This document shows, in pieces, positions 475 to 27,444 of a stretch of 64,000 bases of DNA. Where the stretch lies: positions 1 to 64,000 of IMG/VR virus record IMGVR_UViG_3300048855_000013; one strand, written 5' to 3'. Each line of letters starts with the position of its first letter. Position 1 is the first letter of the stretch. Position numbers and translations under genes: made by a program. Under the pieces are notes generated by a model. It ran no database searches. It saw only the letters and a list, made by a program, of their open reading frames with translations, and was not told the DNA's origin. This DNA comes from a virus.

Positions 475-1209
475 CTAGTAGATGCCGTAGTTCCAGTAGC
501 CTTGGTGAACCTCGATGAGGAACTCATTGATCTTATCATAGTCGGGAAGGTCAGGTGCATGGGTGCCATCCAACTCACTTAGCAGCAGACTCTCAGTTTC
601 AGAGAGGAGTCGCATCACATCATCGTAGCTGTAGGCACCGGCCCGAATGTTCTTGGCGATGTCGAGTGACCGACCAACCAGGGGGATACCTACATCCCCA
701 TTAGCCATGTACCTACGACCCTGCACACCGAGGCGATACGCATGGTAGGCGAACTTGATGTCGTAGCCGTGCTCTGCCTCTAGGTCGGGTCGCTTCTGCC
801 CTCGCTTGCCCTGTAGAGCGGCGATCTGGCTGTGCAGGTACCCGAGGTAGGCTCGGCCTGCTTTCTTGCTCCAGAAGATGTCTCGTGACAGGATGAGAGC
901 CTCTCCTATCTCAGATGTCACCTCGTACGTAGGAAGGTGCAGAAGAGAGCCAACGGTAGGGTTACCAGCAGCAGCGAGAGAGGCAAACTTACGCAGGGAG
1001 TGGTACGTAGTGTCGGACTCTCCTGCCTTGGACTTCTCGCCTTGGGCTGCGTCACTGACGCGCTTGGTTTCGTACTTGCCAAGACCAATCACTTCCTCTT
1101 CTGTCTCTAGAACGATCCCCATGTAGTCATGGTCACTGCTCTCGGTGGCAGTGCCCTGTGCGGTGGACCCATACTCACCGAGCAGGATCAGTAGATTATC
1201 TTGCATCAT
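475..1209 (-). CDS. Pol-beta superfamily nucleotidyltransferase (minimal NTase fold plus C-terminal domain)
   Basis: GS-x9-DHD motif (GSTAQGTATESSDHDYMGIV). Strong RBS AGGAGGTGACC upstream. ATGA overlap with the next gene. Confidence 0.5.
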   Translation of the reverse strand: MMQDNLLILLGEYGSTAQGTATESSDHDYMGIVLETEEEVIGLGKYETKRVSDAAQGEKSKAGESDTTYHSLRKFASLAAAGNPTVGSLLHLPTYEVTSEIGEALILSRDIFWSKKAGRAYLGYLHSQIAALQGKRGQKRPDLEAEHGYDIKFAYHAYRLGVQGRRYMANGDVGIPLVGRSLDIAKNIRAGAYSYDDVMRLLSETESLLLSELDGTHAPDLPDYDKINEFLIEVHQGYWNYGIY

Positions 1210-2273
1210 CGGTCACCTCCTTTGGGCTCCACCATAGCCCACACCTTTTCCCTGACATCCTTGCCCTGGCGCAGTGAGAACATGAATCCTCGAAGCTCAA
1301 GAGGAATGTGGCGCTGCACAGCCAGGGCGAACGTCTTCTGGTCAGGGTCAGGGTGACCCGCGTTGTCCAGCTGACGACGAAGGAACACCCACTCCTTATC
1401 GATGCGCGAAAGGTGGTTGAACACCTCCTCGTGCAGTTCATCGTAGACTTCCTCGGCCCACTTGTACAGTTCGTCGGGCAGTTGCGCAAGCATTGCCTCG
1501 TACTTGCCATCCTTGATGGCACGCCAAATGCTCTTGCGGTTCAGCCCTGTGACCACACGGTGTAGCTCCACATAGTCAGCCTGCTTGATCTTCACACCCT
1601 TGAACTCACTCGTCCACACTACCCAGCCCTCCGAGTTGGGACGGCTGAGGTTCTGAACGATGTCCTCGAACCCGATGCCATTCTGGTTGGAGAACGCAGG
1701 CACAGGAAGGTAGGCACCCGATGCCACATGGATGTATCCGAGTGGCTGGAGGAACTCTTGGTCATCATAGTTCAGGACGATGCGGTTCTCCGGGTAGATG
1801 ATTTCGAACAGCGGAGTGTAGCCACTGTCGATCCACTCGTCTGCCATGTACGCCTTGCCCGAGGCATGGAGAATCGATGTGCCCTTGACGGCTTGCTCTG
1901 AGTTGAAGCTGCCTCGCGTAGCGATGGCAGGCGTTCCGTTCGGGGTGCGGTACAAGATACCGAGCGAGCCGTCAAACTTGTTGCCATAGGCATAGAGCGG
2001 TGCCTTCCAGTCGAGGATGGCTGGTGCCTCTGCCTCATCCCAGTTGTGCATCTTGGCGAACGGACGTGCGAGCACATCCATTGTCTCCATGTTCACAATG
2101 AGTCCACGGCACAGACGGGTCGCAGCGTTCCACCGACGAGAGAACTGTGCCTCCGGGGTGTAGTTGTAGATCACATAGTGATCGTACAGCGGGTGGTGTC
2201 GGGCAGAGATGAACCCTGCCTCCACCTCAGCTGCCAGCAGATCAACGTCCACAATTTCATTCAGTTTAGTCAC
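1206..2273 (-). CDS. ATP-dependent RNA ligase, T4 Rnl1-like
   Basis: Motif I KFDGSLGILY and a downstream TRGSFNSEQA resemble T4 RnlA KEDGSLVSTY...KSKGSIKSEQA. GTG start with GGAGGTG RBS. Confidence 0.6.
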   Translation of the reverse strand: MTKLNEIVDVDLLAAEVEAGFISARHHPLYDHYVIYNYTPEAQFSRRWNAATRLCRGLIVNMETMDVLARPFAKMHNWDEAEAPAILDWKAPLYAYGNKFDGSLGILYRTPNGTPAIATRGSFNSEQAVKGTSILHASGKAYMADEWIDSGYTPLFEIIYPENRIVLNYDDQEFLQPLGYIHVASGAYLPVPAFSNQNGIGFEDIVQNLSRPNSEGWVVWTSEFKGVKIKQADYVELHRVVTGLNRKSIWRAIKDGKYEAMLAQLPDELYKWAEEVYDELHEEVFNHLSRIDKEWVFLRRQLDNAGHPDPDQKTFALAVQRHIPLELRGFMFSLRQGKDVREKVWAMVEPKGGDR

Positions 2274-2590
2274 AGGTAAATCACCTCCGGTCCTTTAGCT
2301 TTGTTTTCTTTGATCCGCGCGTTCCGCTCATCAATTTCTGCCCATCGGTTTTCGCTGTTCTCCTTGACATAAGCAGCACTCTGCATGATGTAACTCTTTG
2401 AGCCAGCGTATCGAAGTTCTCGCAACAGTCGTGGATGACTGATGATTCCAATGAACTCATCAGGATCATCGGAAGATGGAGTAATGGTGAGCTTCCACTC
2501 ACTCCAGTCAGGATTCTCACTGGCGTCCACTACAACGGGCGGCTCCGGTGTGCCTGGTGCTGGGTGAAACAGTGCGCTTAGAAACTTCAT
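2270..2590 (-). CDS. hypothetical protein
   Basis: ORF with internal ATG at 2590 preceded by GGAGGATTG. Overlaps the stop of the CCA-enzyme gene. Confidence 0.4.
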   Translation of the reverse strand: MKFLSALFHPAPGTPEPPVVVDASENPDWSEWKLTITPSSDDPDEFIGIISHPRLLRELRYAGSKSYIMQSAAYVKENSENRWAEIDERNARIKENKAKGPEVIYL

Positions 2591-3279
2591 CAATCCTCCA
2601 TCGTGGGCTTGAGCCACATGCCACTGCCTTTGAAGGCATAGTCACGTAACTCAGGGTAGTAGTTGTCGAGTAAATGGGCAGTGTAGGTAGTGTCATGCTT
2701 GAAGCACTTGTACAACTCCTCACGTACCCTTTCTATACTGACATTGGGCAGGTTGTCAAGCACACTCAGAGTTCTCAAAGCTCGATGTAGCTCAGAGGTG
2801 AAGGCAAACTCTTTCGTCACACGGAATCGGATAGCTCGGTACATACGTAGAGCATCCTCAGTGAACACCTCTTTGGGGTCACGCACAGTGCGCAGAACCA
2901 GAGCGTAGAGGTCACGCCGCCCGCCGAACGGATCAATGATTCTGCCGATCTCATCCTCGGCCATCGCGTTGACGGTGAAGTCTCGTCGTAGCAAGTCATC
3001 CATGAGGGTGCCTGGCTCTGTGCTGTCAGGACGACGACCGTCAGAGTAGTAGCCATCCTTGCGTGCGAGAACAAAGTCCCCAGCCTCGCCCGAAGAAAGC
3101 CGAGCGCGGATGGTTCCGTACTCTGGCTTTTCCAGAAAAATTTGGCTGATTTTTCCGCGCGTGAGCCAGTCTTTCATCTCGTCGTAGCTGTCGGCAATGA
3201 CCACATAGTCGAGGTCTTTGGGGCGCAGCCCGAGCAGCTTGTCTCGGACTGCACCCCCTACGAGAAACATCTCAGGCAT
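2590..3279 (-). CDS. cca: tRNA nucleotidyltransferase (class II CCA-adding enzyme, head domain)
   Basis: FLVGGAVRD...DLDYVV...RRDFTVNA signature of class II CCA/poly(A) polymerase head domain. RBS AGGAGGAAAAG. Confidence 0.7.
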   Translation of the reverse strand: MPEMFLVGGAVRDKLLGLRPKDLDYVVIADSYDEMKDWLTRGKISQIFLEKPEYGTIRARLSSGEAGDFVLARKDGYYSDGRRPDSTEPGTLMDDLLRRDFTVNAMAEDEIGRIIDPFGGRRDLYALVLRTVRDPKEVFTEDALRMYRAIRFRVTKEFAFTSELHRALRTLSVLDNLPNVSIERVREELYKCFKHDTTYTAHLLDNYYPELRDYAFKGSGMWLKPTMED

Positions 3280-3457
3280 TCTTTTCCTCCTGCATCATAT
3301 TGATAGCTTCTCTGAGTGCGATGTACCGGTCAATCTCCCTGTCACCTATGTGCATAGGACCAAGAAACCGTAACACGCTCTGTGTTTCAGCCAATGTGAA
3401 TCCCTGGGCAGCGCATATCATCGCTGCTATATCCAAGAATGTTACGAAGATGGGCAT
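3272..3457 (-). CDS. hypothetical small protein
   Basis: 61-aa ORF in operon context with weak RBS. Confidence 0.35.
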   Translation of the reverse strand: MPIFVTFLDIAAMICAAQGFTLAETQSVLRFLGPMHIGDREIDRYIALREAINMMQEEKNA

Positions 3458-4356
3458 TAGAAGTCACCGTAGGCGACCTGAAAGGCTGAGATGCCCTTGG
3501 CTCGCCACATATCGATCACTCGGTTGCGGTCATCGAGAACGAAGTCCACATACCAGTTGTCCTTGATGTGGTTCTCGAAAATCTCATCCTTCACGATGGC
3601 ATCGTTGCGAGTATCCTTAGGAGTACGCATGAAGATGCGGTCAAAGATCACCTCGTGCTTCTTGAGCCACTGCTTGAGCACCTCACGGTAGGCTCCGTCG
3701 CGGCCCGACACAATGATGATCTGCACACCCAGGAAGGCCATCTTGTTCACCAGATCACGGACAACCCAGTCAATGCTGTCATCGATGTACTTACTGGTGT
3801 CGTAGGGACCACGATTGGTCATGTGAGCCAGGGTACCATCGATGTCTACGATAATAGCGTGTGGCAGACCAATGGTGGGCTTGTACGGCTTGAAGAGGTC
3901 GCCCTCCAGAAGTTCAGGCACAGGGGGGAAGGTTCCGTTCTTGCCGAGCTTCTTGTTGTAGAAGTCCTCGACCACCTGTGCACCCACCTGTGGAGTGCGG
4001 ATGGCATCACGACGCAGCGCCTCAGGGAGAGGTATGGGGAAGTCCTTGAACTCCACCTCTGCGCCCTCGTAGAACGCGATCACGAGAAGCTCACGGACGG
4101 ACTTGGCGTTCAGGTTGGTGTTGTCCACCACCACGTCGTAGCCCTTGCCCAGGAACTTCTTGATCTGCTCGTTCTGTAGCTCGGTGACGAGCTTCTCGGG
4201 GACACCATATCCCTTGCCGAAGTGACCCCATCGAATATTGTCACGGTTGACACGAGCGCGGTGCTGCCCCTCAGGGGCGTCGAGCACCCACCGGGTTGCC
4301 CAGGTGCTCTTTCCAGAGGCAGGAATGCCTCGGGTGATGATTAGCTTGCGAGCCAT
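3457..4356 (-). CDS. pnk: polynucleotide kinase / 3'-phosphatase (T4 Pnk-like, bifunctional)
   Basis: N-terminal P-loop GIPASGKST and C-terminal HAD phosphatase motif IVDIDGTL. Start reassigned to the ATG at 4356 with a GGAGGAACT RBS. Confidence 0.7.
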   Translation of the reverse strand: MARKLIITRGIPASGKSTWATRWVLDAPEGQHRARVNRDNIRWGHFGKGYGVPEKLVTELQNEQIKKFLGKGYDVVVDNTNLNAKSVRELLVIAFYEGAEVEFKDFPIPLPEALRRDAIRTPQVGAQVVEDFYNKKLGKNGTFPPVPELLEGDLFKPYKPTIGLPHAIIVDIDGTLAHMTNRGPYDTSKYIDDSIDWVVRDLVNKMAFLGVQIIIVSGRDGAYREVLKQWLKKHEVIFDRIFMRTPKDTRNDAIVKDEIFENHIKDNWYVDFVLDDRNRVIDMWRAKGISAFQVAYGDF

Positions 4357-4463
4357 AGTTCCTCCGCTTCGTCGTCTAGTGTAAATTCTGTTACGTTCCA
4401 CCACTCTTCATCTCCAGCGATGAGAGCCATGAGTCTTGCTTCTGCCCCGTACACGATGTACAT
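4341..4463 (-). CDS. hypothetical small protein (40 aa)
   Basis: ATG with strong AGGAGGTATC RBS. Overlaps the pnk start. Below the ORF-track size cutoff. Confidence 0.3.
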   Translation of the reverse strand: MYIVYGAEARLMALIAGDEEWWNVTEFTLDDEAEELWLAS

Positions 4464-4471
4464 GATACCTC

Positions 4472-4807
4472 CTAGTCTTTCAGCCATCCATCTCGGAGTG
4501 GCTGACCAGGCTTACGACTGCAACAGCCGTCGCAGCCGTGGATGTTCTGGTAGTTCTGCCCTACGCTATTCAAGAAGCGAGCAGAATCAGGGTCTGGGTG
4601 GCCCACACCGTGCTCACAGATACGCTCCATGATCCCTCGGTCTGTGCGCCAGTTGTGAGGCCAGTGCTCGACGTTCTCAATGGCTTCACGATCCGGGTTA
4701 TGGATCACGCAGCCATCAGCGCAGCCTGCGTTGATAGTGTGTGTCTTGAGAACGTACGCACCATCGAGCGACCGCAAATCGCCGTTTTTGTCTCTTTCGA
4801 GAAGCAT
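4472..4807 (-). CDS. Cys/His-rich hypothetical protein (putative metal-binding)
   Basis: Start reassigned to the ATG at 4807 (GGAGGTTCC RBS). CxxGC...H...HWPHNW...CEHGVGHPDPD...HGCDGCC. Confidence 0.4.
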   Translation of the reverse strand: MLLERDKNGDLRSLDGAYVLKTHTINAGCADGCVIHNPDREAIENVEHWPHNWRTDRGIMERICEHGVGHPDPDSARFLNSVGQNYQNIHGCDGCCSRKPGQPLRDGWLKD

Positions 4808-4899
4808 GGAACCTCCAAAAAATTTTTTCCATTTTCCGCGCATGGGCCTGCGCTAGTAAGACACTAACACAGGCCCACGCCGATTTTCGTTGTATTCAG

Positions 4900-6411
4900 T
4901 TATTTCCCAGCTAGAACGGCACGAATGTCGTCAAGCGACTGCCATCTGAGGAATTCACCATCTCGGTAGACATCCTTCATCAGGTCATCGTGATCGCTGA
5001 TCCACTCGTCGTACGATAGGTCATCTACAAGCACCAGATCGCCGGTAGGGCTGCTGCGCACAACGAGCCGTCCACGAGCGCTCTTCTTGGTTCCGCTGTC
5101 CGTGATGGGATTCTTGCTGATCGCCTTCTCTTCACCGTTGATCCGAACCCACGTCGCCTTGATGGCCGACGAGAAAGTGTCGCGGGTCTGGTACTGGTAG
5201 GTGTAGCTGCCGACACCGAACACGATATTGGTGGAGGCAAATCCCTTGGCTGCCAGTCGTCGGATGATTTCACGAGCGCGGTCGAAGGTGATCGAGTCAC
5301 CGTAGATCGCACCGATGTGAGGATCGAGCACCTTGTAGCCCTGTGCGTTGACCGTGCCGCCGAAGACATCCCACAGAAGCTCGATGACGCCCTTCTGCGC
5401 AGGAGTACGAGCCGACTCTACAGGATACCCGGCCTCATACACCGTGGGATTCTCACCTGTAATGATGAGCACCGGATCACCCGAGTCAGGGCGCACGACG
5501 AGCTTGCCGTCACGAGCCATGATTTCGTCCTTGAGGTCCGGGAGAATGTTCGTCAGAACGTTCCACAAATCCCAGGTGTCGGACACAACGGACACGATGC
5601 CAGCCGGGTAGAGCTTGAGCAGTCGGGCGAACGTTTCACGCTCATCCTCTTCACCGCCAGCGCACATCACCGAGTGCTCGGTGGCGGGCACAGAGCCAAG
5701 AAGCCAGCCCTCGTAGGGCTGCTCGTAGGCTGCTCCGTAGTGCTGGTCCACCCACTCCAGCGACACCAGGGAATCTGAACCCTGGAAGCTGAGAAGGTGA
5801 CCGGCACCAGAAGCCGCAGCTGCGGTGTTTCCGGCCATTCCACGGTACGAGAAGTCATGACCCTGGAACTGGACTCCTGCGAGGCCATCCTGGTCCGTAT
5901 CCTCGGCACCAGCGACCAGCAAAGTCTTGAAATGATCCGCTAGCGTAGCCGAAGTGCTCGGCTGCCAGACAGAGGCGCTGATCCACGTTTCGAGGTAATT
6001 CACCAGCCAGTAGAAGTCCGGGTGAGTGTTGCGAATCGTGAACGACGGCACCTTGATCGGCACTCGTGTGCCCTCAGGGAGGGAACCGAACGCCAGCGGC
6101 AGGTAGCCTAGTTTGTGCAGCGCACGGATGTGGTCTGAGCCGACCGTGTTCGGGCCGAGAATGGAGTTAACCCTGTTCTCGTATTCGAGAACGATGTCCT
6201 CGATGTCGCCTTCGAAGAAGTCATCGAACTGGTTGGTCAGATCGACCAGGAAGCCCTGGAGTCCGAAGTGAACAACGTGCTCGATACCCTCGATGCGCGA
6301 GCCTCGGTTCGTGTAGTTCGAGAACACCTGCTCGGTACCCTCAGGGTACTGACGACGATGGTCGAGCTTGTAGGCATCGGTCTGGAGAAGTGGTGCTACT
6401 GCCTTACTCAT
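4900..6411 (-). CDS. nicotinamide phosphoribosyltransferase-like enzyme (Nampt/NadV family; candidate Namat)
   Basis: 503 aa. N-terminus LLQTDAYKLDHRRQYPEGTE and C-terminal GTKKSARGRL are typical of Nampt. RBS GAAGGAGG. Confidence 0.7.
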   Translation of the reverse strand: MSKAVAPLLQTDAYKLDHRRQYPEGTEQVFSNYTNRGSRIEGIEHVVHFGLQGFLVDLTNQFDDFFEGDIEDIVLEYENRVNSILGPNTVGSDHIRALHKLGYLPLAFGSLPEGTRVPIKVPSFTIRNTHPDFYWLVNYLETWISASVWQPSTSATLADHFKTLLVAGAEDTDQDGLAGVQFQGHDFSYRGMAGNTAAAASGAGHLLSFQGSDSLVSLEWVDQHYGAAYEQPYEGWLLGSVPATEHSVMCAGGEEDERETFARLLKLYPAGIVSVVSDTWDLWNVLTNILPDLKDEIMARDGKLVVRPDSGDPVLIITGENPTVYEAGYPVESARTPAQKGVIELLWDVFGGTVNAQGYKVLDPHIGAIYGDSITFDRAREIIRRLAAKGFASTNIVFGVGSYTYQYQTRDTFSSAIKATWVRINGEEKAISKNPITDSGTKKSARGRLVVRSSPTGDLVLVDDLSYDEWISDHDDLMKDVYRDGEFLRWQSLDDIRAVLAGK

Positions 6412-6599
6412 CAGACCTCCTTCGTGTTGTACATGAAGCCTTCGAAGTCTGTATTGTATTCGATGGTGCCAATACCGGCTCCATCCTCGTCCTCCAAGAC
6501 GACCTTGCCGATGAACACCTCATCGACCTCGTTGAGCTTGGCGAATTCTTCCACCAACGTGCCGATACGGACCAGCTGATCGCTGCGAAGTAGTGTCAT
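6411..6599 (-). CDS. hypothetical small protein encoded between the Nampt-like and Prs-like genes
   Basis: 62-aa acidic ORF with strong AAGGAGGCAAA RBS. ATGA-type coupling on both sides. Confidence 0.4.
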   Translation of the reverse strand: MTLLRSDQLVRIGTLVEEFAKLNEVDEVFIGKVVLEDEDGAGIGTIEYNTDFEGFMYNTKEV

Positions 6600-7540
6600 T
6601 TTGCCTCCTTGATAGAAAGCTCCTCGTAAAAGTACGGGAGCAGTTTGGTGACCTTTGCACCCACAGCCTCATTGTAGGCTCCGGGATGCGAATCGGTCGT
6701 AAAGATGTTGCCGTATGCCTCAGTCAGCTGTCCAGCGTTACCCGAGAAGATACCATGTGTGACCCAGAGGTCGAGGTTCTCACGGGGAATTCCCAGCACA
6801 CCAGCAAGGCCCATAAAGGTACCTCCACCATCACAGATGTCATCCACCACTAGATAGCGACCTTCGGTAGGCGGATACTCCACCTCGACAACATCTCCGT
6901 TTCCAGCGTATTCCTGATGCGTCCACTGCGCGGGAGCAGTGAACTTGAGCAGCTTGCCACTGTCGAAGTCACGCTCTTTACCAGCGAAGTATGTGGGTAC
7001 TCCGAGCTTGTCTCCGACACGCTGTGCGCGCCTGTGAGCGCCTTTGTCAGGTGCGATGACCCCAGCATACCGGGAACCCGGTTCTGAGCCGCCCACGGCC
7101 CGCACAGTGACCCTCTCGACCGGGATGGGGTACCCCACTAGCGGAGAGATGTTCAGATAGCTGCCCCGGTCCCCTCTGTAAAGGTCGTCGGACACATCAC
7201 TGTGCGGATCGATGTACACAATGCTGTGCGCTGCGATGTTCTCGACCATGTTGCGGTAGATTTGAACTCCTGCTGGCTCTCCTCGGTCTGCACGTGCTGC
7301 TGGGAGGTAAGGCAAGAACAGGTGACGGCGAGCGTGGGTTGTAGCCATAAGCAAGTCAGCCCACATCGCTGCGACCATCAGGTCATCCGTGCTGGCACCA
7401 CGAACCACAGCGAAGTATTCGATGTATTCGATAATGTCTTCCTTGGTGATGTGCCACTCACCGCCTGGAAACTGGAACGGCTTGAAATTGGTACGGACCA
7501 GATGCCCGCTCGGGGCTCTGCCCCAGAATTCGATGCTCAT
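6596..7540 (-). CDS. ribose-phosphate pyrophosphokinase (PRPP synthetase)-like enzyme (candidate Adps)
   Basis: PRPP-binding loop YLVVDDICDGGGT plus a THGIFSGNA segment match Prs. Start set at the ATG at 7540, which overlaps the upstream stop. Confidence 0.6.
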   Translation of the reverse strand: MSIEFWGRAPSGHLVRTNFKPFQFPGGEWHITKEDIIEYIEYFAVVRGASTDDLMVAAMWADLLMATTHARRHLFLPYLPAARADRGEPAGVQIYRNMVENIAAHSIVYIDPHSDVSDDLYRGDRGSYLNISPLVGYPIPVERVTVRAVGGSEPGSRYAGVIAPDKGAHRRAQRVGDKLGVPTYFAGKERDFDSGKLLKFTAPAQWTHQEYAGNGDVVEVEYPPTEGRYLVVDDICDGGGTFMGLAGVLGIPRENLDLWVTHGIFSGNAGQLTEAYGNIFTTDSHPGAYNEAVGAKVTKLLPYFYEELSIKEAK

Positions 7541-7788
7541 TTCATCCGCCCATCTTTCTTTGCTCGTTCTGCGAATTTTTCCTGGTTGCGCTGCTCTACA
7601 TCCACCTTGCGCCACTTGCTTGTATATCCCGCATCGTAAGCCCATGCGAGCCACAAGTGGTGGGAGTTGTCGTAGCAATCGTAATCCTGATTATCGGTGC
7701 GTCCCTCGAAGAAGGTCACAGCCGCCCCAATCAGATAGACAAGTACCAGCACGAAGATAATGATCGCGATAGCTGCAATACCAGCCAT
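7537..7788 (-). CDS. small membrane protein
   Basis: N-terminal hydrophobic helix AAIAIIIFVLVLVYLIGAAV. Confidence 0.45.
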   Translation of the reverse strand: MAGIAAIAIIIFVLVLVYLIGAAVTFFEGRTDNQDYDCYDNSHHLWLAWAYDAGYTSKWRKVDVEQRNQEKFAERAKKDGRMK

Positions 7789-8462
7789 CAGAAAGCCGCC
7801 TTCTCGAAGAGGTCAACAGTCTTCACCTTGACGATGATGCGCTTACCTCGCTGATCGTACAGCGGAACGACCGGGCGTGCAACCACGCCCTCTGCCATCA
7901 CATCTGCACCCGTGTTAGTGGATGCCAGGCGGGACCAGAGGCCACGAGACACAGCCGCCACGATGTAGTCGAGGCTGACTGCTCCGATGGTAACCGGGCG
8001 CAGCACAGGGATGTTCAGCTTGTCGTAGACATCCTCTACGTTGTCTTGGGAGAGCCACGAACCGTTCACACGGATGTCGTAGCCCACAAACTCCTTGTTG
8101 GGGGAGTAGTGAGCACCCGACTGGATGCCAGCACCATAGCCTTCTCCGACGAAGATGACCTCCTTCTCACCGAACATCTCCTCGACCTCTTCTTCCACGC
8201 CGGGAGCGTTGAAGTAGCTGGCGATCTTCTCGATGAGATGACCATGCAGCTGTGCTCGGTCTGTGCGTCCCTCGATGGCGAAGTTGTGCCCATCCCAGAC
8301 AACACGGATGTTGGTGCCATCGATTTTCTCGGTAGCCGTCCAGATGTCAGAGTCTGCCAGAGCCTGCACAGTGGGGTCCACCCAGAGGGAGCGATCCACC
8401 TTCTTGATGTCCTCGGCAGAGCGCTTGAACGGCCCTGCGATCTTGTGGTATTCGTCAGCCAC
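7788..8462 (-). CDS. RNA ligase, Rnl2-like nucleotidyltransferase domain only
   Basis: Motif I EKIDGTNIRV (compare T4 Rnl2 EKIHGTNFS). 224 aa. RBS AGGAGGAAAAAG. Confidence 0.55.
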   Translation of the reverse strand: MADEYHKIAGPFKRSAEDIKKVDRSLWVDPTVQALADSDIWTATEKIDGTNIRVVWDGHNFAIEGRTDRAQLHGHLIEKIASYFNAPGVEEEVEEMFGEKEVIFVGEGYGAGIQSGAHYSPNKEFVGYDIRVNGSWLSQDNVEDVYDKLNIPVLRPVTIGAVSLDYIVAAVSRGLWSRLASTNTGADVMAEGVVARPVVPLYDQRGKRIIVKVKTVDLFEKAAF

Positions 8463-8814: not shown

Positions 8815-8956
8815 GCAGCACTTCCCGTTCGAAACCTTGTAGGTAGATAATTTCGTTGGCTGCCTCGTTGAGGAGGTCAGCTACACCGTAACGCAGTCCT
8901 GCGTCATTGAACGCTGCGGCGCGATCACGCAGTCGGTCTACTAGATCGGTCACCAT
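8801..8956 (-). CDS. hypothetical small protein (51 aa)
   Basis: ATG with GAGGTGG RBS. Below the ORF-track cutoff. Confidence 0.3.
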   Translation of the reverse strand: MVTDLVDRLRDRAAAFNDAGLRYGVADLLNEAANEIIYLQGFEREVLRESE

Positions 8957-9212
8957 CCACCTCGATGATCCGCAGCCAAGGCCCGCTCATTCTGTCGCAG
9001 GTCTTCCTCCAGCACACGAACGCGCTCTAGCTGTGTTCGCACCAGTTCGTAGTCCTCCTGGATAGAATCATGCACACTCTCGTCTGTAGCATCCATGAGG
9101 TAGTCAGACATGCGCTCCAAGGCTTCGATAGCCATGATCAGCGGGTTGTCTTCGGCCCTCGGTGCCTGTCCTGGGTGGAAGGTTGCTTCCACTTTATCGT
9201 TTGCTCCCATGT
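8950..9212 (-). CDS. hypothetical protein
   Basis: Start reassigned to the ATG at 9212 with GAGGAGGAAG RBS. Confidence 0.4.
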
Positions 9213-9232
9213 GCTTCCTCCTCATATCTTGT

Positions 9233-9270
9233 TTGGCTCCGCGAGTGGGATTTGAACCCACCATTATCCA
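9233..9270 (-). other. tRNA 3'-half-like element (T-arm GTGGG/TTCAAAT/CCCAC, 7-nt acceptor 3' strand, G, CCA). The 5' half does not fold.
   Basis: Reverse complement reads GTGGGTTCAAATCCCACTCGCGGAGCCA. The complementary TCCGCGA lies about 117 nt upstream, too far for a normal tRNA. Confidence 0.35.
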
Positions 9271-9390
9271 TCAGTTTCATAAGGCGATCAACCCCTCCAC
9301 TGATTTCGGACGACTGTACACCTTCGTCCATGACCCTAGCATTCGCGGATCACAGCAGTTTACCCACATGCTTAGGTGCGTCCGTCAGGA

Positions 9391-9615
9391 CTAGAGGGTG
9401 ACGCCTGCCTCTTCGAGGACAGTGAGCGCCTTCTGGACAGCCGCAGCGTGTGCTGCGTCTACCTTGGCCTGCTCCGTGAGGTCGCCAGCCTGACGAATCA
9501 GGCTGTCAGCCGTGTCATTCTTGACCACTGCATTGCGGGCGAGCTTCTCGCCCTTCCCAACCAGCTGTGCTTGCACAGGTGGGATGGAGGACTTTCGAAC
9601 GAATCCGAGTACCAT
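9391..9615 (-). CDS. hypothetical protein
   Basis: ORF in operon. Confidence 0.4.
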   Translation of the reverse strand: MVLGFVRKSSIPPVQAQLVGKGEKLARNAVVKNDTADSLIRQAGDLTEQAKVDAAHAAAVQKALTVLEEAGVTL

Positions 9616-9632: not shown

Positions 9633-10550
9633 TTACTTCTGAACCTGGACGAACGGGGTAGCTCCCTCGGGAACCACAAACACCGTGCCATCCTTGTATG
9701 CGTCGATCAGCTTCTGCTGGAGCACCTGAGGAGTCAGGGACTCGGAGAGCAGACGGTTGGCATCAGCCGCAGCCTGTGCCTCCACGACCTGCGCCTGAGC
9801 GCTGATCTGGGTGGCGTTCAGGTTAGCCTGAGCCTCGGCTTCCTTCTGGTTCGCGACCTCAACGGCCTTGAGGCTGTTCTCCACGTCGTCGCTGTAGCGA
9901 ATCTCCTGGAGGTTGACGACCTCGATGTTCACACCGAACGGCTTGAGCTTGGCCTGGAGTGCATCCTGAATCTGGCCCTGAGCGGTGCCACGGTCAGCAC
10001 CACGGAAGTCCACAGCGCTGTACTGGCTCGGGACATCACGGGTTGCAGAACGGATTGCGTTCTCGATAACCTGCTTGGTGAACGCTTCCTGGGTGCGGTA
10101 CTTCTTGTAGAGGTCCGTCACCTTCTCAGGATCGATGGAGTAGACCACCGAGAGGTCGAGGTTCACCTGTGCACCGTTGGCGACTGCCGACGTGATCTGC
10201 GGTCCGGTCACTTTACCACCGGAGTAGTTCGTGTCACCGCCCGCCACGTAGGAAATCTCCTGTGCGAACAAGTCCCAGTCGCTGAACGACTGCCACGGTG
10301 CCTTGAGGTCCGACCCTGGGGTCAAGTCCTGACCAGCAATCGTGCCATCGAAGTTCAGGATGACCTTCGCTTCACCGACACTCTGCGTGTAGAAGGACGA
10401 GAAGAAGCCGATGACCAAGGCCAAGGCGATTGCACCTGCTCCTACGCCTCGCCATACCGTTCGCGGGAACGAATCTCGGAACTTGAACGAGAACAGAATT
10501 GCCCCCACAGCCACGACCGCCAGAATGACGATCACGATGATTTCAAACAT
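9633..10550 (-). CDS. SPFH/band-7 (stomatin/HflKC-like) membrane protein
   Basis: N-terminal TM helix followed by a band-7-like core and an Ala/Gln/Glu-rich coiled-coil tail. Confidence 0.55.
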   Translation of the reverse strand: MFEIIVIVILAVVAVGAILFSFKFRDSFPRTVWRGVGAGAIALALVIGFFSSFYTQSVGEAKVILNFDGTIAGQDLTPGSDLKAPWQSFSDWDLFAQEISYVAGGDTNYSGGKVTGPQITSAVANGAQVNLDLSVVYSIDPEKVTDLYKKYRTQEAFTKQVIENAIRSATRDVPSQYSAVDFRGADRGTAQGQIQDALQAKLKPFGVNIEVVNLQEIRYSDDVENSLKAVEVANQKEAEAQANLNATQISAQAQVVEAQAAADANRLLSESLTPQVLQQKLIDAYKDGTVFVVPEGATPFVQVQK

Positions 10551-10663: not shown

Positions 10664-10918
10664 TCAGCGTTTGAGAGTGTCGCTCTTCTCAGGGAGTAAC
10701 CGTCGTGCTGTGTTGTAGTCCTTGGTCCCGAGAGCCGTAGCAATACGGCTAACTGGGATGAGAGCGTAATCAGCCCTTGCTACTACGGGTCGGAGTAGCT
10801 CGTTTTCGAGTGCTTCCTTTAGCTGCGCTGTTTCTCTTTCGAGGCGCTGCCGGAAGTTTCGGTTGGCGTGTGCTACGTCCAGCAGAATCTCCTCCTGCTC
10901 CTGCGTCAGGTTCGTCAT
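10664..10918 (-). CDS. hypothetical protein
   Basis: 84-aa ORF with balanced composition. Confidence 0.4.
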   Translation of the reverse strand: MTNLTQEQEEILLDVAHANRNFRQRLERETAQLKEALENELLRPVVARADYALIPVSRIATALGTKDYNTARRLLPEKSDTLKR

Positions 10919-11072
10919 CTATCCCCACAATCTCATTGAAAAATTTTTCCATTGTGGCCCACGCGGGGTCACCGTCCATCTTTTGCACAGCCTGGGCGAC
11001 AGCCCACCAGGCATGGCGACCCTTCGAACCTTGAAGAGCCACCATGCCTTCGACTGTCTCCTTGAATGTCAT
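10770..11072 (-). CDS. hypothetical protein. The low-complexity C-terminal third overlaps the previous gene in another frame, so its true extent is uncertain.
   Basis: The first 50 aa look real. The tail is R/K/A/P-rich. Confidence 0.3.
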   Translation of the reverse strand: MTFKETVEGMVALQGSKGRHAWWAVAQAVQKMDGDPAWATMEKFFNEIVGIDDEPDAGAGGDSAGRSTRQPKLPAAPRKRNSAAKGSTRKRATPTRSSKG

Positions 11073-11425
11073 GCCACCCTACCCCATGAACGGGAATCGT
11101 AGGGAATCATCTTCTCGTAGATGCCCGGTTCAAAGAACTGCGTATGCAGGACGATCTGAGCAGCGATGTGAATCTCTCGGTGGAGCTTGAGCATTTCTTC
11201 CTCAAGCTCTTCGAAAAACTCTCCGTCCTTGTCCTCATCCCAGTAGATACGCTTGCCATCCACGCTATTCAGGATTCCCCATATATCTTGGGCGATATCG
11301 GAGTTGCCGTAAGGACGCTTGGGATCAGTGGAAAATCCACCATCACCCGCGTAATCATCCTCGTTCGTCTCGACCCATACCTCACCGAGCAGCTTGAGGT
11401 GATCCTCTGTCAGTTTGAATCTCAC
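11069..11425 (-). CDS. hypothetical protein
   Basis: ORF in operon. Confidence 0.45.
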   Translation of the reverse strand: MRFKLTEDHLKLLGEVWVETNEDDYAGDGGFSTDPKRPYGNSDIAQDIWGILNSVDGKRIYWDEDKDGEFFEELEEEMLKLHREIHIAAQIVLHTQFFEPGIYEKMIPYDSRSWGRVA

Positions 11426-15728: not shown

Positions 15729-16129
15729 AGACGTTCTCCTTCTGGTGTGTGAATGATGTTGTACTCCAGGTCAACCTCAGCGTCCCGTAGCACAGATACC
15801 ATTTTGCTGCGCTGTGTGTCCCCGCCACCGACGCGAACCCAGGAATTCTCCTCGATCTTGACAACTCCCTTGTCCTTCGCTGAAATCGAAACAGCACGAG
15901 AAAACAGCGGGTAATCCTTGGCTGTTTTCGGCTCCTCCCAGACTTCCAGCTTGAAAGTTCCGGGGTAAGGAATGCGAATCGGCGCAGCCACCACGTCCTC
16001 GATGGTGTAAATCGAATCATCGTCGTTGATCCGCAGAATTCCCACGATTTGTGTCTCACCCTTGGTGAGTCGTACTTTCTTGTTCTGGGCGTAGCTCCAG
16101 CTACCGCTTCTCCATTTACCGTTACTCAC
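15725..16129 (-). CDS. hypothetical protein
   Basis: ORF. Confidence 0.45.
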   Translation of the reverse strand: MSNGKWRSGSWSYAQNKKVRLTKGETQIVGILRINDDDSIYTIEDVVAAPIRIPYPGTFKLEVWEEPKTAKDYPLFSRAVSISAKDKGVVKIEENSWVRVGGGDTQRSKMVSVLRDAEVDLEYNIIHTPEGERL

Positions 16130-16626
16130 AGGTTGCCCTCCTCATCGAATTCCCAGTCGTTTGCTTCCGCAGTCTCACGGAAAGCCTCGTCGGAAGAAAT
16201 GTACTCGTCTTCCGCAATGAATGCCTCGTACATCTTGCGAGAGAGGTTCACAATGAACTGCTCCGCCGCAACCTGTGCACCCACGGGTACATCGTCCCGC
16301 CATTCATCGTCCGGGTAGAAGAGTTCGATGTCCCCTCCCCAACGGCTCGTGTTTGTCACCAGCTTGTAGGTCACTCCACCGTACTCGAATGGTCCCGTGG
16401 TAGCGAACTTCGGGTAACCTCCCTGAGTGTACAGGCTGTAAGTAAGATCGCTTGCCATACTCAGTCCCGCGTCCTCTAGGATGCCGTCAGCGATGAGTTG
16501 CATGGATTCCTGCATCCATCCCGACTCCCACTCGAACTGGTTGTGCTTGGCCCGAGCGTTCTCCTGCGCCGACTCACTGAGTTCGTCGTAGGTGTACCAC
16601 ACCTTCTCGTATGTCTCCGTGCGCAT
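16126..16626 (-). CDS. hypothetical protein
   Basis: ORF with ACCTCC RBS complement. Confidence 0.45.
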   Translation of the reverse strand: MRTETYEKVWYTYDELSESAQENARAKHNQFEWESGWMQESMQLIADGILEDAGLSMASDLTYSLYTQGGYPKFATTGPFEYGGVTYKLVTNTSRWGGDIELFYPDDEWRDDVPVGAQVAAEQFIVNLSRKMYEAFIAEDEYISSDEAFRETAEANDWEFDEEGNL

Positions 16627-16652: not shown

Positions 16653-16738
16653 TGGCGGCGATAGATGGAGTTGAACCACCTTACATGGGGAGCGCTCCCC
16701 GCTCAGCTCATTTCTGGGCTGTTGCACCGTGCATCGCC
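16653..16738 (-). other. tRNA-like element (86 nt). Possible degenerate type II tRNA.
   Basis: Reverse complement has a 7-bp acceptor pairing GGCGATG/TATCGCC with G plus CCA, a T-arm GGTGG/TTCAACT/CCATC, and a perfect GGGGAGCGCTCCCC hairpin as a variable-arm candidate. The D and anticodon arms do not resolve. Confidence 0.3.
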
Positions 16739-26492: not shown

Positions 26493-26521
26493 TTGACAAA
26501 CCACTCAGAAGCTGCAATACT
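26493..26521 (+). promoter_or_regulatory. putative promoter TTGACA-N17-AATACT upstream of the tRNA array
   Basis: Read directly. Confidence 0.35.
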
Positions 26522-26595
26522 TTACTTATTGATCCCAAGGCAGAGCTTTGGCGGCTATGATGAAAACCTTCGCCGTGAGGAAGGTTACCAACTAT

Positions 26596-26667
26596 TCCCC
26601 CGTAGCTCATTGGCAGAGCGGCAGGCCGTTAACCTGCGCGTACTTGGTTCGATCCCAGGCGGGGGAG
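26596..26667 (+). tRNA. tRNA-Asn (anticodon GTT) with unusual C33
   Basis: Manual cloverleaf: acceptor TCCCCCG/CGGGGGA, D GCTC/GAGC, AC GCAGG-CCGTTAA-CCTGC, T CTTGG-TTCGATC-CCAGG. Confidence 0.6.
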
Positions 26668-26732
26668 CGTTTGCTGGTTGCAGAGAAACCAGCTGGTTGT
26701 GGTTGTGAGTGATTCCCTTGTAAACTCTCGAT

Positions 26733-26809
26733 ACCGATTGTGTTCCCGTTGGACGGGAGGCGGCTTCCAAACCCGCTAAGCTATAGGGGTTCGATTCCTC
26801 CAGTCGGTG
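26733..26809 (+). tRNA. tRNA-like. Possible tRNA-Trp (CCA) with an irregular connector and variable region.
   Basis: Acceptor ACCGATT/AGTCGGT, T-arm AGGGG-TTCGATT-CCTCC, loop TTCCAAA. 77 nt. Confidence 0.3.
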
Positions 26810-27045
26810 CGACTTAGTGGCTACTAGTCACCAAAGGAGATGGCAGCGGGGCGCGACCAGTACCCAATAACGGGGCCACTAAGTTTTACTTGACAAAACC
26901 CAGTTCGTCTGGGAGAATGGTTACATGATGTTTGAACTTGATCTACACCTGGCGGCTTACCCCGCTTAGTAGTCGAGCCTACGCAAAATGTAGCCTTTGA
27001 CTCTCAGAGTCGGGGGCATTTTTTATAACTACACAGAGTACACAT

Positions 27046-27117
27046 GGGCCTGTGGCTTGATAGGGAAGCAGCACCTTTGCAAGGTGTTATATGGGGGTTC
27101 GAATCCCCTCGGGTCCA
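27046..27117 (+). tRNA. tRNA-Ala (TGC)
   Basis: Acceptor GGGCCTG/CGGGTCC, D GCTT/AAGC, AC GCACC-TTTGCAA-GGTGT, T GGGGG-TTCGAAT-CCCCT. Confidence 0.6.
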
Positions 27118-27188
27118 CGTAAGGTTCCGCTCAGATGGAGTAGCGGACGAAAGTAGCGGCAGATGGAGTTCGCTAGCCTCACTTACAT

Positions 27189-27413: not shown

Positions 27414-27444
27414 CGGCGGGTGCCGCAATGGTAGACGGTGAGCG

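What the first reader, a model, noticed from the sequence alone, without database searches (positions are those of the whole stretch)
9233..9350. Minus-strand tRNA 3'-half mimic (T-arm plus acceptor plus CCA) without a foldable 5' half
GTGGGTTCAAATCCCACTCGCGGAGCCA matches a tRNA T-arm and 3' end exactly. The only complementary acceptor strand is about 117 nt away and no D or anticodon arm forms. It could be an attP-type core copied from a host tRNA gene, although no integrase is in the window. It could also be a decayed tRNA, a tRNA-fragment-like decoy, or an intron-containing or split tRNA.
Basis: seen in the sequence. Interest (0 to 1): 0.5.

Follow-up and report, generated by a model that had tools for sequence, protein, structure and literature searches.

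The report
Conserved tRNA-like RNA element in phage
The flagged sequence is a conserved, folded tRNA look-alike that cannot decode codons, sits between two phage genes, and appears to be an enlarged member of a widespread, unannotated class of mini tRNA mimics in phage genomes.

Summary
On the minus strand at 9349..9234 there is a perfect T-arm, a 7-bp Watson-Crick acceptor stem, discriminator G and an encoded CCA, 116 nt in all. It is not a canonical tRNA, not a tmRNA and matches no Rfam family. It is not an attP core either, because its 3' end matches no sequence in 185,579 species genomes.

It is not decayed. Two related phage contigs carry a homologue in the same slot, after the SPFH gene. 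Their sequences differ, but acceptor and T stems are kept by compensatory changes and the multi-hairpin fold is the same.

Eight more distant relatives carry, in that slot, a ~45-nt mini version: an acceptor-like stem, a D-loop-like AAUGG linker and a T-arm, with no anticodon arm. This mini motif is common in IMG/VR contigs and in cultured Streptomyces, Mycobacterium, Microbacterium and Streptococcus phages. It shows strong covariation, is never annotated, and is absent from Rfam.

A second CCA-ended element lies at 16738..16653.

The most likely role, by inference only, is a tRNA top-half mimic within an operon transcript. It would be handled by tRNA-processing enzymes (RNase P, 3' trimming, CCA-adding enzyme), setting mRNA ends and/or releasing a small stable RNA. 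A trans-acting decoy role is not excluded.

The parts
9343..9349 (-). E1 5' acceptor strand UCCGCGA
   Evidence: It forms seven Watson-Crick pairs with 9244..9238. The equivalent stems in L003 (GCCACCG/CGGUGGC) and L002 (GGGUGG/CCAUUC) have different sequences.
9330..9342 (-). E1 D-loop-like segment AUG-CUAGGGU-CAU (possible 3-bp stem, loop with GGG)
   Evidence: Read from the sequence. L003 has CGU-AUAUGGC-ACG and L002 has GUAG-UCUGGCAGA-CUAC at the same place. The mini versions have AAUGG here. The pairing itself is not in the MFE fold, so this part is tentative.
9308..9329 (-). E1 hairpin 1: GGACGA / UCGUCC stem with a 10-nt interior AGGUGUACAG
   Evidence: Present in the MFE and centroid folds. 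There is no 7-nt anticodon-type loop.
9270..9304 (-). E1 hairpin 2: AUCAGU / ACUGAU outer stem with an inner AGGG/CCUU stem-loop
   Evidence: The outer stem is in the MFE and centroid folds. L003 has an analogous outer stem of nine pairs enclosing an inner hairpin.
9245..9261 (-). E1 T-arm GUGGG-UUCAAAU-CCCAC
   Evidence: The T stems covary in the homologues: GAGGG/CCCUC in L003 and GUUGG/CCAAC in L002.
9234..9244 (-). E1 3' acceptor strand UCGCGGA, discriminator G, encoded CCA
   Evidence: CCA is encoded here and in E2, but in only one of about 20 tRNAs of the phage's own array. It is absent from the L002 and L003 homologues.
9355..9379 (-). Conserved 25-nt motif GCACCTAAGCATGTGGGTAAACTGC that ends 5 nt before E1; it contains a -10-like TAAACT that ends 7 nt before E1
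   Evidence: It is unique in the window and present before the E1 homologues in L002 and L003. It is widespread in unrelated phages, with a covarying 5-bp stem around the conserved loop TGTGKGTAAAC. GTAAACT occurs at five other sites in the window, none inside an ORF of 150 aa or more; two of these follow TTGACA at promoter spacing.
9208..9223 (-). Ribosome-binding site GAGGAGGA and ATG start of the downstream 86-aa ORF (8950..9210)
   Evidence: Read from the sequence; ORF table. It lies 11 nt after the CCA, and no terminator-like site was found between them.
16653..16738 (-). E2, a second tRNA-like element of 86 nt: GGCGAUG ... GGUGG-UUCAACU-CCAUC-UAUCGCC-G-CCA with two internal hairpins
   Evidence: It lies just upstream of the RBS of ORF 16126..16626. 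The L003 contig has no equivalent upstream of the homologous ORF.

Best explanation
E1 (9349..9234, minus strand) is a functional, conserved tRNA-like structured RNA. It is not a tRNA gene and not an integration site. It keeps the 'top half' of a tRNA: a 7-bp acceptor stem stacked on a canonical T-arm, a GG-containing D-loop-like segment that could form the elbow, and a G-CCA 3' end. In place of the D-stem, anticodon arm and variable region it has two idiosyncratic hairpins, so it cannot read codons.

It lies inside a minus-strand gene train, between a 74-aa ORF downstream of an SPFH (band-7) gene and an 86-aa ORF. That ORF opens a run of genes that includes RNA ligase, NAD-salvage enzymes, PNKP, a CCA-adding-type nucleotidyltransferase, Rnl1 and RlaP. 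A -10-like TAAACT ends 7 nt before its 5' end.

It is the expanded form of a ~45-nt mini tRNA-like element (acceptor-like stem, AAUGG linker, T-arm). The mini form occupies the same slot in more distant relatives and is widespread in phages.

Inferred mechanism, not shown: once transcribed, the element is treated as a pre-tRNA by host, and perhaps phage, tRNA-processing enzymes. RNase P would cut at its 5' edge unless transcription starts there. 3' trimming would stop at the encoded CCA, or RNase Z plus the CCA-adding enzyme would act on the CCA-less homologues. This would punctuate the operon transcript. It would define or protect the 3' end of the upstream message and the 5' end of the downstream one, and would release a small stable CCA-ended RNA.
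For: **Shown: the structure is real and non-random.**

**Shown: conservation with compensatory change.** L002 (SPFH protein 81% identical) and L003 (68%) carry a 115-121-nt element in the same place.
- Acceptor stems are UCCGCGA/UCGCGGA, GCCACCG/CGGUGGC and GGGUGG/CCAUUC.
- T stems are GUGGG/CCCAC, GAGGG/CCCUC and GUUGG/CCAAC.
- Each of the three folds on its own into a multi-hairpin junction closed by the acceptor stem, with the T-arm as the last hairpin. The z-scores are -1.4, -2.3 and -5.2.

**Shown: the mini element in the same slot.** Eight more distant relatives (L004, L007, L008, L009, L145, L147, L148, L149) have a ~45-nt mini element there.

**Shown: the mini motif is a real RNA family.**
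- Of 115 unique IMG/VR pattern hits, 77 have 5-7 consecutive acceptor pairs of diverse sequence. The mean was 4.3 pairs against 1.8 for mismatched partners.
- On a 58-sequence alignment, 87.8% of cells pair against 54.6% in shuffles. The covariation score is 0.78 against 0.16, reached by 0 of 500 shuffles. The T helix is 99.4% paired.
- The same DNA pattern in cellular genomes gives mostly unstructured hits, with 11 of 113 structured.

**Position.** True minis are co-oriented with flanking ORFs. In 40 of 74 the first paired base lies within 15 nt after the upstream stop codon.

**Context consistent with processing.** The phage encodes a PolyA_pol/CCA-adding-type enzyme and an RNA-repair gene set. 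CCA is encoded in E1 and E2, but in only one of the phage's ~20 array tRNAs.

**Established knowledge.** RNase P, RNase Z and the CCA-adding enzyme recognise the acceptor/T-arm minihelix and the elbow, not the anticodon arm. Plant mitochondrial t-elements (PMC1920247) and mascRNA work this way.
Against: - No expression or cleavage data exist, so every mechanistic step after 'conserved fold' is inference.
- The window copy's fold is only weakly better than shuffles (z = -1.4).
- Homology between the 116-nt form and the minis rests on synteny and shared architecture. The covariance model built from the minis does not detect E1 at E <= 10.
- The D-like 3-bp stem is not in the MFE fold.
- The three long forms differ in how many interior hairpins they have and how large these are, so the interior may not matter or may do something unknown.
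- If transcription starts at the TAAACT box, RNase P is not needed at the 5' side. The element would then be a 5' leader rather than an intercistronic punctuation mark.
- Minis show no U preference at position -1.
- The acceptor-helix statistics come from sequences pre-selected for at least 5 pairs. The unselected figures are those.
Confidence: 0.5

Rival explanations
1. E1, E2 and the minis are trans-acting tRNA top-half mimics. They would be released or separately transcribed small RNAs that bind, titrate or distract host factors that recognise the tRNA elbow and acceptor end. Candidates are tRNA-targeting defence nucleases or toxins, RNase P, the CCA-adding enzyme, EF-Tu, modification enzymes and SmpB. 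They might also serve the phage's own RNA-repair enzymes.
For: - CCA is encoded in both E1 and E2, but in only one of the phage's array tRNAs.
- A -10-like box lies 7 nt upstream of E1, and the same GTAAACT lies 6 nt before tRNA-Trp.
- E1 opens a run of genes rich in RNA-repair functions.
- The motif is strongly enriched in phage contigs relative to cellular genomes.
- No protein family recurs among the neighbouring genes, so any partner would be a host factor.
Against: - There is no anticodon loop, so the element cannot act as a decoy for anticodon nucleases.
- Most minis lack both CCA and a recognisable promoter, and sit tightly between ORFs of one operon. That fits a cis role at least as well.
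- Nothing here shows that a free small RNA accumulates.
Confidence: 0.2
2. E1 is a cis-regulatory leader for the downstream genes. In this reading the tRNA-like fold sits in the 5' UTR, after the conserved upstream hairpin/promoter motif. It would control stability or translation of the mRNA that starts with ORF 8950..9210 and runs into the RNA-ligase and NAD-salvage genes. It might do so by sensing tRNA-directed damage or processing capacity.
For: - The order is conserved motif, then E1, then RBS 11 nt after the CCA, with no terminator between.
- The upstream motif in other phages sits 10-30 nt before an RBS and start codon.
- The motif's flank CACCU is complementary to AGGUG in the loop of E1 hairpin 1 (read).
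Against: - The genes downstream of E1 differ between the window, L002 and L003, whereas the upstream SPFH gene is constant.
- Minis are positioned more tightly relative to the upstream stop codon than to the downstream start.
- No alternative structure that would occlude the RBS was identified.
Confidence: 0.15
3. E1 is a non-canonical but chargeable tRNA-like molecule. It would be aminoacylated through acceptor-stem identity elements (U1-A72 and G73 resemble bacterial tRNA-Gln) and used for something other than normal decoding.
For: It has a perfect acceptor stem, a discriminator and an encoded CCA. It is established that minihelices can be charged by some synthetases.
Against: - The acceptor sequence and the discriminator are not conserved: G in the window, A in L002 and L003.
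- G3:U70 is not conserved among the minis.
- There is no anticodon loop, and GlnRS needs the anticodon.
- ARAGORN and Infernal reject it.
Confidence: 0.05
4. E1 is an attP-type core, a decaying tRNA pseudogene, or a chance resemblance.
For: Only the surface resemblance of the 28-mer to a tRNA 3' half.
Against: - No exact host match and no match in IMG/VR.
- No integrase was found among the ORFs scanned.
- The stems covary in relatives.
- The shuffle tests argue against chance.
Confidence: 0.03

Closest known systems
Plant mitochondrial t-elements and the tRNA-punctuation model (Forner et al. 2007, PMC1920247)
   Same: These are tRNA-like folds embedded in longer transcripts next to coding regions. 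They are not decoding tRNAs and are proposed to be cut by RNase P and RNase Z to create mRNA 5' and 3' ends. The intercistronic, co-oriented position is the same.
   Different: They occur in organelles, not phages, and there is no sequence relationship. Cleavage is documented for t-elements and only inferred here. E1 encodes its CCA.
mascRNA / MEN-beta tRNA-like RNAs (Rfam RF01684)
   Same: Each is a small tRNA-like module at the end of a longer RNA, with a reduced or absent anticodon arm. It is processed by RNase P and RNase Z and then receives CCA. RF01684 was the best, though sub-threshold, Rfam hit for a mini element, at 20.9 bits against a gathering score of 42.5.
   Different: These are mammalian nuclear lncRNAs. 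The score is far below threshold, so this is an analogy and not membership.
tRNA-like domain of tmRNA
   Same: Both have an acceptor stem plus T-arm, with a D-loop analogue that lacks a D stem and no anticodon arm.
   Different: E1 has no mRNA-like reading frame, no pseudoknots and no conserved G3:U70. The sizes are 116 nt, or 45 nt for the minis, against about 360 nt. The ARAGORN tmRNA search and the Rfam tmRNA models do not call E1 as a tmRNA; one call gave only sub-threshold T-arm-length matches elsewhere in two mini-bearing contigs.
Bacterial Y RNA YrlA (Chen et al. 2014, PMC4201824)
   Same: It is a non-coding RNA with a tRNA-like domain that is encoded in RNA-repair gene neighbourhoods and also occurs in some phages.
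   Different: YrlA has a Ro-binding stem formed by its ends and no free CCA-type acceptor end, and it is linked to a Ro60/TROVE gene. No Rfam Y-RNA hit was found, and no TROVE protein was seen among the ORFs scanned.
3' tRNA-like structures of plant RNA viruses (TYMV, BMV and TMV types)
   Same: They are viral tRNA mimics with an acceptor/T-arm analogue and a CCA end that is recognised by host tRNA enzymes.
   Different: They lie at the genomic 3' terminus of plus-strand RNA viruses, have a pseudoknotted acceptor arm and are aminoacylated. E1 is internal to a dsDNA phage operon and has an ordinary helical acceptor stem.

Membership tests
Canonical tRNA (Rfam RF00005 / ARAGORN) | 7-bp acceptor stem and 5-bp T stem with a 7-nt UUCRANY loop | tested here: met
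Canonical tRNA (Rfam RF00005 / ARAGORN) | Anticodon arm with a 5-bp stem and 7-nt loop, a D arm, and a total length of about 70-95 nt | tested here: not met
   The element is 116 nt. Its interior hairpins have a 10-nt interior and a compound stem. ARAGORN at default settings and Infernal at E <= 10 give no tRNA call. Lowering thresholds only forces a model with a 29-nt 'intron'.
tmRNA | Tag reading frame with resume codon, pseudoknots, and a G3:U70 alanine identity pair | tested here: not met
   The third acceptor pair is C3-G70. No ARAGORN tmRNA call was made even at lowered threshold, and Rfam gave no hit.
Phage attP core derived from a host tRNA gene | Exact identity of about 20-45 nt with the 3' end of a host tRNA gene | tested here: not met
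   The 23-mer had no exact match in 185,579 species genomes. The host itself is unknown, so absence from the true host cannot be proven.
Phage attP core derived from a host tRNA gene | Integrase encoded nearby | tested here: not met
   No integrase family appeared among the scanned ORFs of the window. About 6.5 kb of the 70.5-kb source contig lies outside the window and was not examined.
   compare.
   E1 has 81 nt with two or three hairpins between the strands. R1 gives no full-length hit in the window at E <= 10. E1 is therefore best described as an expanded derivative, not a typical member.
t-element / mascRNA-type processing signal | Cleavage by RNase P at the 5' edge, and by RNase Z or exonucleases at the 3' edge, in vivo | not testable with these tools
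   This needs end-mapping RNA-seq or in-vitro cleavage assays.
Y RNA (YrlA-like) | Ro-binding terminal stem and a linked Ro60/TROVE gene | tested here: not met
   No Rfam Y-RNA hit. The ends of E1 form a tRNA acceptor stem with a free GCCA. No TROVE hit appeared among the scanned ORFs, and not all ORFs were scanned.

The most novel reading that the evidence does not exclude
Phages of many bacterial phyla carry a dedicated, so far unannotated class of tRNA 'top-half' mimics: minis of ~45 nt and expanded CCA-ended forms such as E1 and E2. In this reading they act in trans on the host tRNA machinery or on tRNA-directed immunity. For example, they might sequester or misdirect elbow/acceptor-recognising nucleases, RNase P or the CCA-adding enzyme, or cooperate with phage RNA-repair enzymes. 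This would go beyond merely punctuating mRNAs.
Probability: 0.2. Interest if true: 0.85.

Novelty: new variant of a known kind. Interest (0 to 1): 0.62.

Why it matters
tRNA mimicry is well known in RNA viruses, organelles and mammalian lncRNAs. Intercistronic tRNA-like elements have not, as far as the searched literature and Rfam 15 show, been described as a class in dsDNA phages.

If the inference is right, many phages use the host's universal tRNA-processing enzymes to cut and stabilise their operon transcripts. That mechanism would work across host phyla. It would also explain dozens of unannotated intergenic gaps in well-studied Streptomyces, Mycobacterium, Microbacterium and Streptococcus phages.

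If the elements instead act in trans, they would be a new kind of phage counter-measure aimed at tRNA-centred host functions.

Either way the elements are directly testable in cultivable phages. They also supply a ready covariance model for annotation.

Tried and rejected
- **tRNA finders and Rfam.** ARAGORN at default settings, in intron mode and at lowered thresholds gave no credible tRNA or tmRNA. The ARAGORN tmRNA and metazoan-mitochondrial modes were also negative. Rfam at the gathering threshold and at E <= 10 gave nothing.
- **Exact-match scans.** The T-arm/acceptor 29-mer found nothing in IMG/VR. The 23-mer found nothing in species genomes.
- **Searches against cultured phages.** Megablast of the surrounding 3 kb found no match. 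tblastn with the two small flanking ORFs also found none. A blastn search with the element itself returned only weak T-arm-level hits to ordinary phage tRNAs.
- **The search for related loci.** The SPFH protein as query in IMG/VR found nothing. Relatives were reached through the protein database and contig look-ups instead.
- **Curtobacterium phage Yappy.** This is the closest cultured relative by SPFH DNA. It has no element in the syntenic position.
- **A protein partner.** Clustering the neighbouring ORFs of about 120 mini loci gave only lineage-specific clusters and no shared family.
- **Flanking bases of the minis.** A U(-1) or RCCA signature would have supported RNase P. The flanks are A at -1 and A then a pyrimidine at +1 and +2, which is not diagnostic. 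Relatedness of the sequences also inflates these counts.
- **Literature.** Searches by motif sequence and by topic found no description of either the hairpin motif or the mini element. A 2023 catalogue of 10,006 viral candidate structured RNAs mentions tRNA-like candidates in general terms.
- **The upstream hairpin motif as a preQ1-type or other known riboswitch.** There is no Rfam support.
Full report
**1. The observation**

Read on the minus strand, window 9349..9234 is UCCGCGA-[81 nt]-GUGGG-UUCAAAU-CCCAC-UCGCGGA-G-CCA. The T loop is canonical. The T stem has five Watson-Crick pairs. The 7-nt strand after it pairs perfectly with UCCGCGA at 9349..9343. A discriminator G and CCA follow.

The site stands out statistically.
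- The T-loop pattern GGTTCRANYCC occurs 17 times against 0.35 expected. Fifteen copies are in the plus-strand tRNA array at 26.6-30.6 kb. Two are on the minus strand, here and at 16667-16677.
- Outside the array, only three places have a 5-bp T stem, a TTCRANN loop and a 7/7 acceptor complement within 200 nt. Only two of those also have CCA. One hundred dinucleotide shuffles averaged 0.21 such places and never produced one with CCA.

**2. It is not a tRNA, a tmRNA or a known RNA family**

- ARAGORN finds 18 tRNAs, all in the plus-strand array, and nothing here.
- Rfam at gathering thresholds and at E <= 10 reports no tRNA, tmRNA, Y RNA or other credible family for 9100-9500.
- ARAGORN run locally with introns allowed finds nothing at default stringency. 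With lowered stringency it forces a tRNA-Ile model with a 3-bp wobble D stem and a 29-nt 'intron' at a non-standard position. The tmRNA mode finds nothing.
- The thermodynamic fold closes the acceptor stem and T-arm. It places two hairpins between them: GGACGA/UCGUCC with a 10-nt interior, and AUCAGU/ACUGAU with an inner stem-loop. The energy is only modestly better than shuffles, z = -1.4.
- There is no 7-nt anticodon-type loop, so the RNA cannot decode.

**3. Context**

The window is most of a 70.5-kb metagenomic contig from a siphovirus-like phage.
- The plus strand carries terminase, portal, protease, capsid, tail and endolysin genes.
- The minus strand carries PolA, an exonuclease and a long train of small genes.
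- The closest cultured phages are only distantly similar actinobacteriophages.
- E1 lies in a 180-nt gap between a 74-aa ORF (9391..9615), which follows an SPFH/band-7 gene (9633..10550), and an 86-aa ORF (8950..9210). The GAGGAGGA ribosome-binding site of the 86-aa ORF starts 11 nt after the CCA.
- Further downstream on the same strand are an HNH protein, an RNA ligase (PF09414), ribose-phosphate pyrophosphokinase, NAMPT, PNKP, a PolyA_pol/CCA-adding-type protein, Rnl1 and RlaP.

**4. The attP idea fails**

- The 23-mer spanning T-arm and acceptor has no exact match in one genome for each of 185,579 bacterial and archaeal species.
- The 29-mer has no match in IMG/VR.
- None of the window ORFs submitted to Pfam or PHROGs is an integrase.
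- More importantly, an attP core would not need the distant 5' strand, and that strand is conserved by compensation (section 5).

**5. Homologues show selection for the fold**

Proteins related to the SPFH gene led to related phage contigs. In L002 (81% identity) and L003 (68%) the gap after the SPFH gene holds an element of 121 and 115 nt.

| Contig | Acceptor stem | T stem | Discriminator | CCA encoded |
|---|---|---|---|---|
| Window (E1) | UCCGCGA/UCGCGGA | GUGGG/CCCAC | G | yes |
| L003 | GCCACCG/CGGUGGC | GAGGG/CCCUC | A | no |
| L002 | GGGUGG/CCAUUC | GUUGG/CCAAC | A | no |

- Five of the seven acceptor positions, and T-stem positions 2 and 3, change on both sides while staying paired.
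- The interiors share no sequence. Yet each RNA folds on its own into a junction closed by the acceptor stem, with the T-arm last. The z-scores are -2.3 for L003 and -5.2 for L002.
- Just after the 5' acceptor strand each has a short hairpin or loop with GG: AUG-CUAGGGU-CAU, CGU-AUAUGGC-ACG and GUAG-UCUGGCAGA-CUAC. This is where a D loop would sit.

This pattern excludes a decaying pseudogene and excludes chance.

**6. A mini version occupies the same slot in more distant relatives**

Eight contigs with 62-69% SPFH identity (L004, L007, L008, L009, L145, L147, L148, L149) carry a ~45-nt element after the SPFH gene, with or without a small intervening ORF, and before the RBS of a small membrane-protein gene. 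An example is UGGGCG-AAUGGCAUACA-CUCAGG-UUCGAGU-CCUGAG-CGCUCA-C.

The element consists of an acceptor-like stem, an 11-12-nt linker that begins with the typical D-loop sequence AAUGG, and a T-arm. The same GAAUGGUU occurs in the D arms of this phage's tRNA-Cys and tRNA-Asp. There is no other arm and no CCA. The stems covary, for example GGGCG/CGCUC against GGGUG/CACCC.

E1 is therefore most simply read as an expanded derivative of this element. The caveat is that homology rests on synteny and architecture. The covariance model built from the minis does not detect E1.

**7. The mini element is widespread and apparently undescribed**

- Of 115 unique instances, 77 have 5-7 consecutive acceptor pairs with very diverse sequences. 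The observed mean was 4.3 pairs. The mean was 1.8 when 3' strands were swapped between instances.
- On a 58-sequence alignment, 87.8% of cells pair against 54.6% in shuffles. The covariation score is 0.78 against 0.16, reached by 0 of 500 shuffles. Sliding the partner columns destroys the signal. The T helix, which was not used for selecting sequences, is 99.4% paired, with two-sided changes at four of its six pairs. The acceptor helix in that alignment was pre-selected for at least 5 pairs, so one search is the unbiased figure for it.
- As a control, the same pattern in cellular genomes gives mostly unstructured hits. Only 11 of 113 have at least 5 acceptor pairs.
- The element is present and unannotated in cultured phages. 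Examples are many Streptomyces phages (Caliburn, Hydra, Izzy, phiCAM), Mycobacterium phages (Send513, Rope, LittleE), Microbacterium phages and Streptococcus phage SA-TP2.
- True minis are co-oriented with their neighbours. In 40 of 74 the first paired base is within 15 nt after the stop codon of the upstream ORF. The next start codon is at a median of 67 nt.
- No protein family recurs next to them.
- Rfam 15 has no family for them. The best hit is mascRNA-menRNA at 20.9 bits against a gathering score of 42.5.
- Full-text searches found no description. A 2023 catalogue of viral candidate structured RNAs mentions tRNA-like candidates only generically.

**8. A second element in the window**

E2 is at 16738..16653, minus strand, and is 86 nt long. 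It has the same logic: GGCGAUG, a 10-nt GG-containing linker, two hairpins (one capped by GAAA), GGUGG-UUCAACU-CCAUC, UAUCGCC, G and CCA. It lies just upstream of the RBS of ORF 16126..16626. L003 has no counterpart upstream of the homologous ORF.

Both E1 and E2 encode G-CCA, whereas only one of about 20 tRNAs in the phage's own array does. This suggests that the CCA matters for these two RNAs.

**9. The motif just upstream**

Five nucleotides before E1 ends a 25-nt motif, GCACCTAAGCATGTGGGTAAACTGC (9379..9355). It is conserved in L002 and L003 and unique in the window.

Unexpectedly, its core recurs in many unrelated phage contigs and in Roseobacter, Clostridium tetani, Microcystis and Lactococcus phages. 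In the true (stem-forming) instances it is co-oriented and lies 10-30 nt before an RBS and start codon, or a few nucleotides before a tRNA.

A 5-nt stem on each side of the conserved loop TGTGKGTAAAC covaries. The observed pairs are AAGCA/TGCTT, AGGCA/TGCCT, GAGCA/TGCTC, GAGTA/TACTC, GAACA/TGTTC and TAGCA/TGCTA. No Rfam family matches.

The motif also contains TAAACT. GTAAACT occurs at five other sites in this phage, none inside an ORF of 150 aa or more. Two follow TTGACA at a 16-17-nt spacing, and one ends 6 nt before tRNA-Trp.

I could not decide whether the motif is a -35-independent promoter, an RNA hairpin, or both. If it is a promoter, E1 is transcribed from about its first base and forms the 5' end of the downstream mRNA.

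**10. Mechanism**

What is shown:
- E1 is a conserved fold that reproduces the acceptor/T-arm minihelix, and probably the elbow, of tRNA.
- It lacks decoding parts.
- It sits inside a gene train.
- It belongs, at least by position and design, with a large phage-enriched family.

What is inferred from established enzymology is the following. RNase P, RNase Z, the 3' exonucleases that stop at CCA, and the CCA-adding enzyme all recognise exactly these parts of a tRNA and ignore the anticodon arm. The most economical explanation is that the element is processed like a pre-tRNA. That would punctuate the polycistronic RNA, leave structured ends on the neighbouring messages, and release a small CCA-ended RNA. 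Plant mitochondrial t-elements and mascRNA behave in this way. I put about 0.85 on 'conserved functional tRNA-like RNA' and about 0.5 on this processing role.

The main rivals are:
- a trans-acting mimic or decoy for tRNA-binding host factors or defences (0.2);
- a cis-regulatory leader of the downstream genes (0.15);
- a chargeable non-decoding tRNA-like RNA (0.05);
- attP, remnant or chance (0.03).

**11. Limits**

- There are no expression data.
- The host is unknown.
- About 6.5 kb of the source contig was not seen.
- Only three long-form homologues exist.
- Many IMG/VR instances are related to each other.
- My literature check covers open-access full text only.

Noticed in passing
window 9355-9379 (minus strand); also L002 5224-5248, L003 10953-10977, L011-L141: This is a 25-nt motif: CACCT, a 5-nt stem, the loop TGTG[G/T]GTAAAC, then the complementary 5-nt stem. 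It is widespread in unrelated phages, including Roseobacter CRP-13 and CRP-6, C. tetani phiCT19406B, Ma-LMM01 and Lactococcus AM4. In the true (stem-forming) instances it is co-oriented and lies 10-30 nt before an RBS and ATG, or 4-8 nt before a tRNA or tRNA-like 5' end. The stem covaries at four of five positions, and there is no Rfam match. Whether it is a promoter (its -10-like TAAACT) or an RNA hairpin is unresolved. Its flank CACCU looks like an anti-Shine-Dalgarno sequence.
   Followed up: partly
window 16653-16738 (minus strand): E2 is a second non-canonical tRNA-like element of 86 nt. It has a 7-bp acceptor stem, the T-arm GGUGG-UUCAACU-CCAUC, an encoded G-CCA and two interior hairpins, one with a GAAA tetraloop. 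It lies directly upstream of the RBS of ORF 16126-16626. No equivalent exists in L003.
   Followed up: partly
L004 ~10913-10954, L007 ~11051-11092, L147 ~6901-6942 and L151-L270; cultured phages L271 1501-1543, L272 1501-1542, L273 1501-1554: A ~45-nt mini tRNA-like motif (acceptor-like stem, AAUGG linker, T-arm, no anticodon arm) is common in phage contigs and in cultured Streptomyces, Mycobacterium, Microbacterium and Streptococcus phages. It is unannotated, absent from Rfam, and shows strong covariation.
   Followed up: yes
L001 (Curtobacterium phage Yappy) 323-421, minus strand: An unannotated 99-nt tRNA-like element lies immediately upstream of the annotated tRNA-Leu(caa). Its acceptor stem is CGGGUAG/CUACCUG and its T-arm is GCAGG-UUCAACU-CCUGC.
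   Followed up: no
window 26500-30700 (plus strand): The tRNA array holds 18-19 callable tRNAs. No tRNA-Tyr was called, and CCA is encoded in only one of them. Several further T-arm-bearing stretches are not called by ARAGORN or Rfam, at about 27440-27535, 28193-28267 and 29789-29858. Several called tRNAs score poorly, and two match the tRNA-Sec model better than the general tRNA model.
   Followed up: partly
window ~27925-28190 (plus strand): A small ORF with an HNH-like motif (…CVVCGTTDRLEINHID…CKDHH…) sits inside the tRNA array, just after a TTGACA-N16-TAAACT promoter-like site at 27880-27907.
   Followed up: no
window 475-8462 (minus strand): This is a dense RNA-repair and NAD-salvage block. 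It holds RlaP (475-1209), Rnl1 (1206-2273), a short PolyA_pol/CCA-adding-type protein (2590-3279), PNKP (3457-4404), NAMPT (4900-6411), ribose-phosphate pyrophosphokinase (6596-7678) and a PF09414 RNA ligase (7788-8462). The same set, in varying order, occurs in the related contigs L002-L010.
   Followed up: partly
window 9315-9322 and 9374-9378 (minus strand): The loop of E1 hairpin 1 contains AGGUG, which is complementary to the conserved CACCU flank of the upstream motif. The L002 hairpin loop contains UAGG (complementary to CCUA) and the L003 loop contains CUAG (complementary to the CUAG in its motif flank). This could reflect a long-range pairing or be a coincidence.
   Followed up: no
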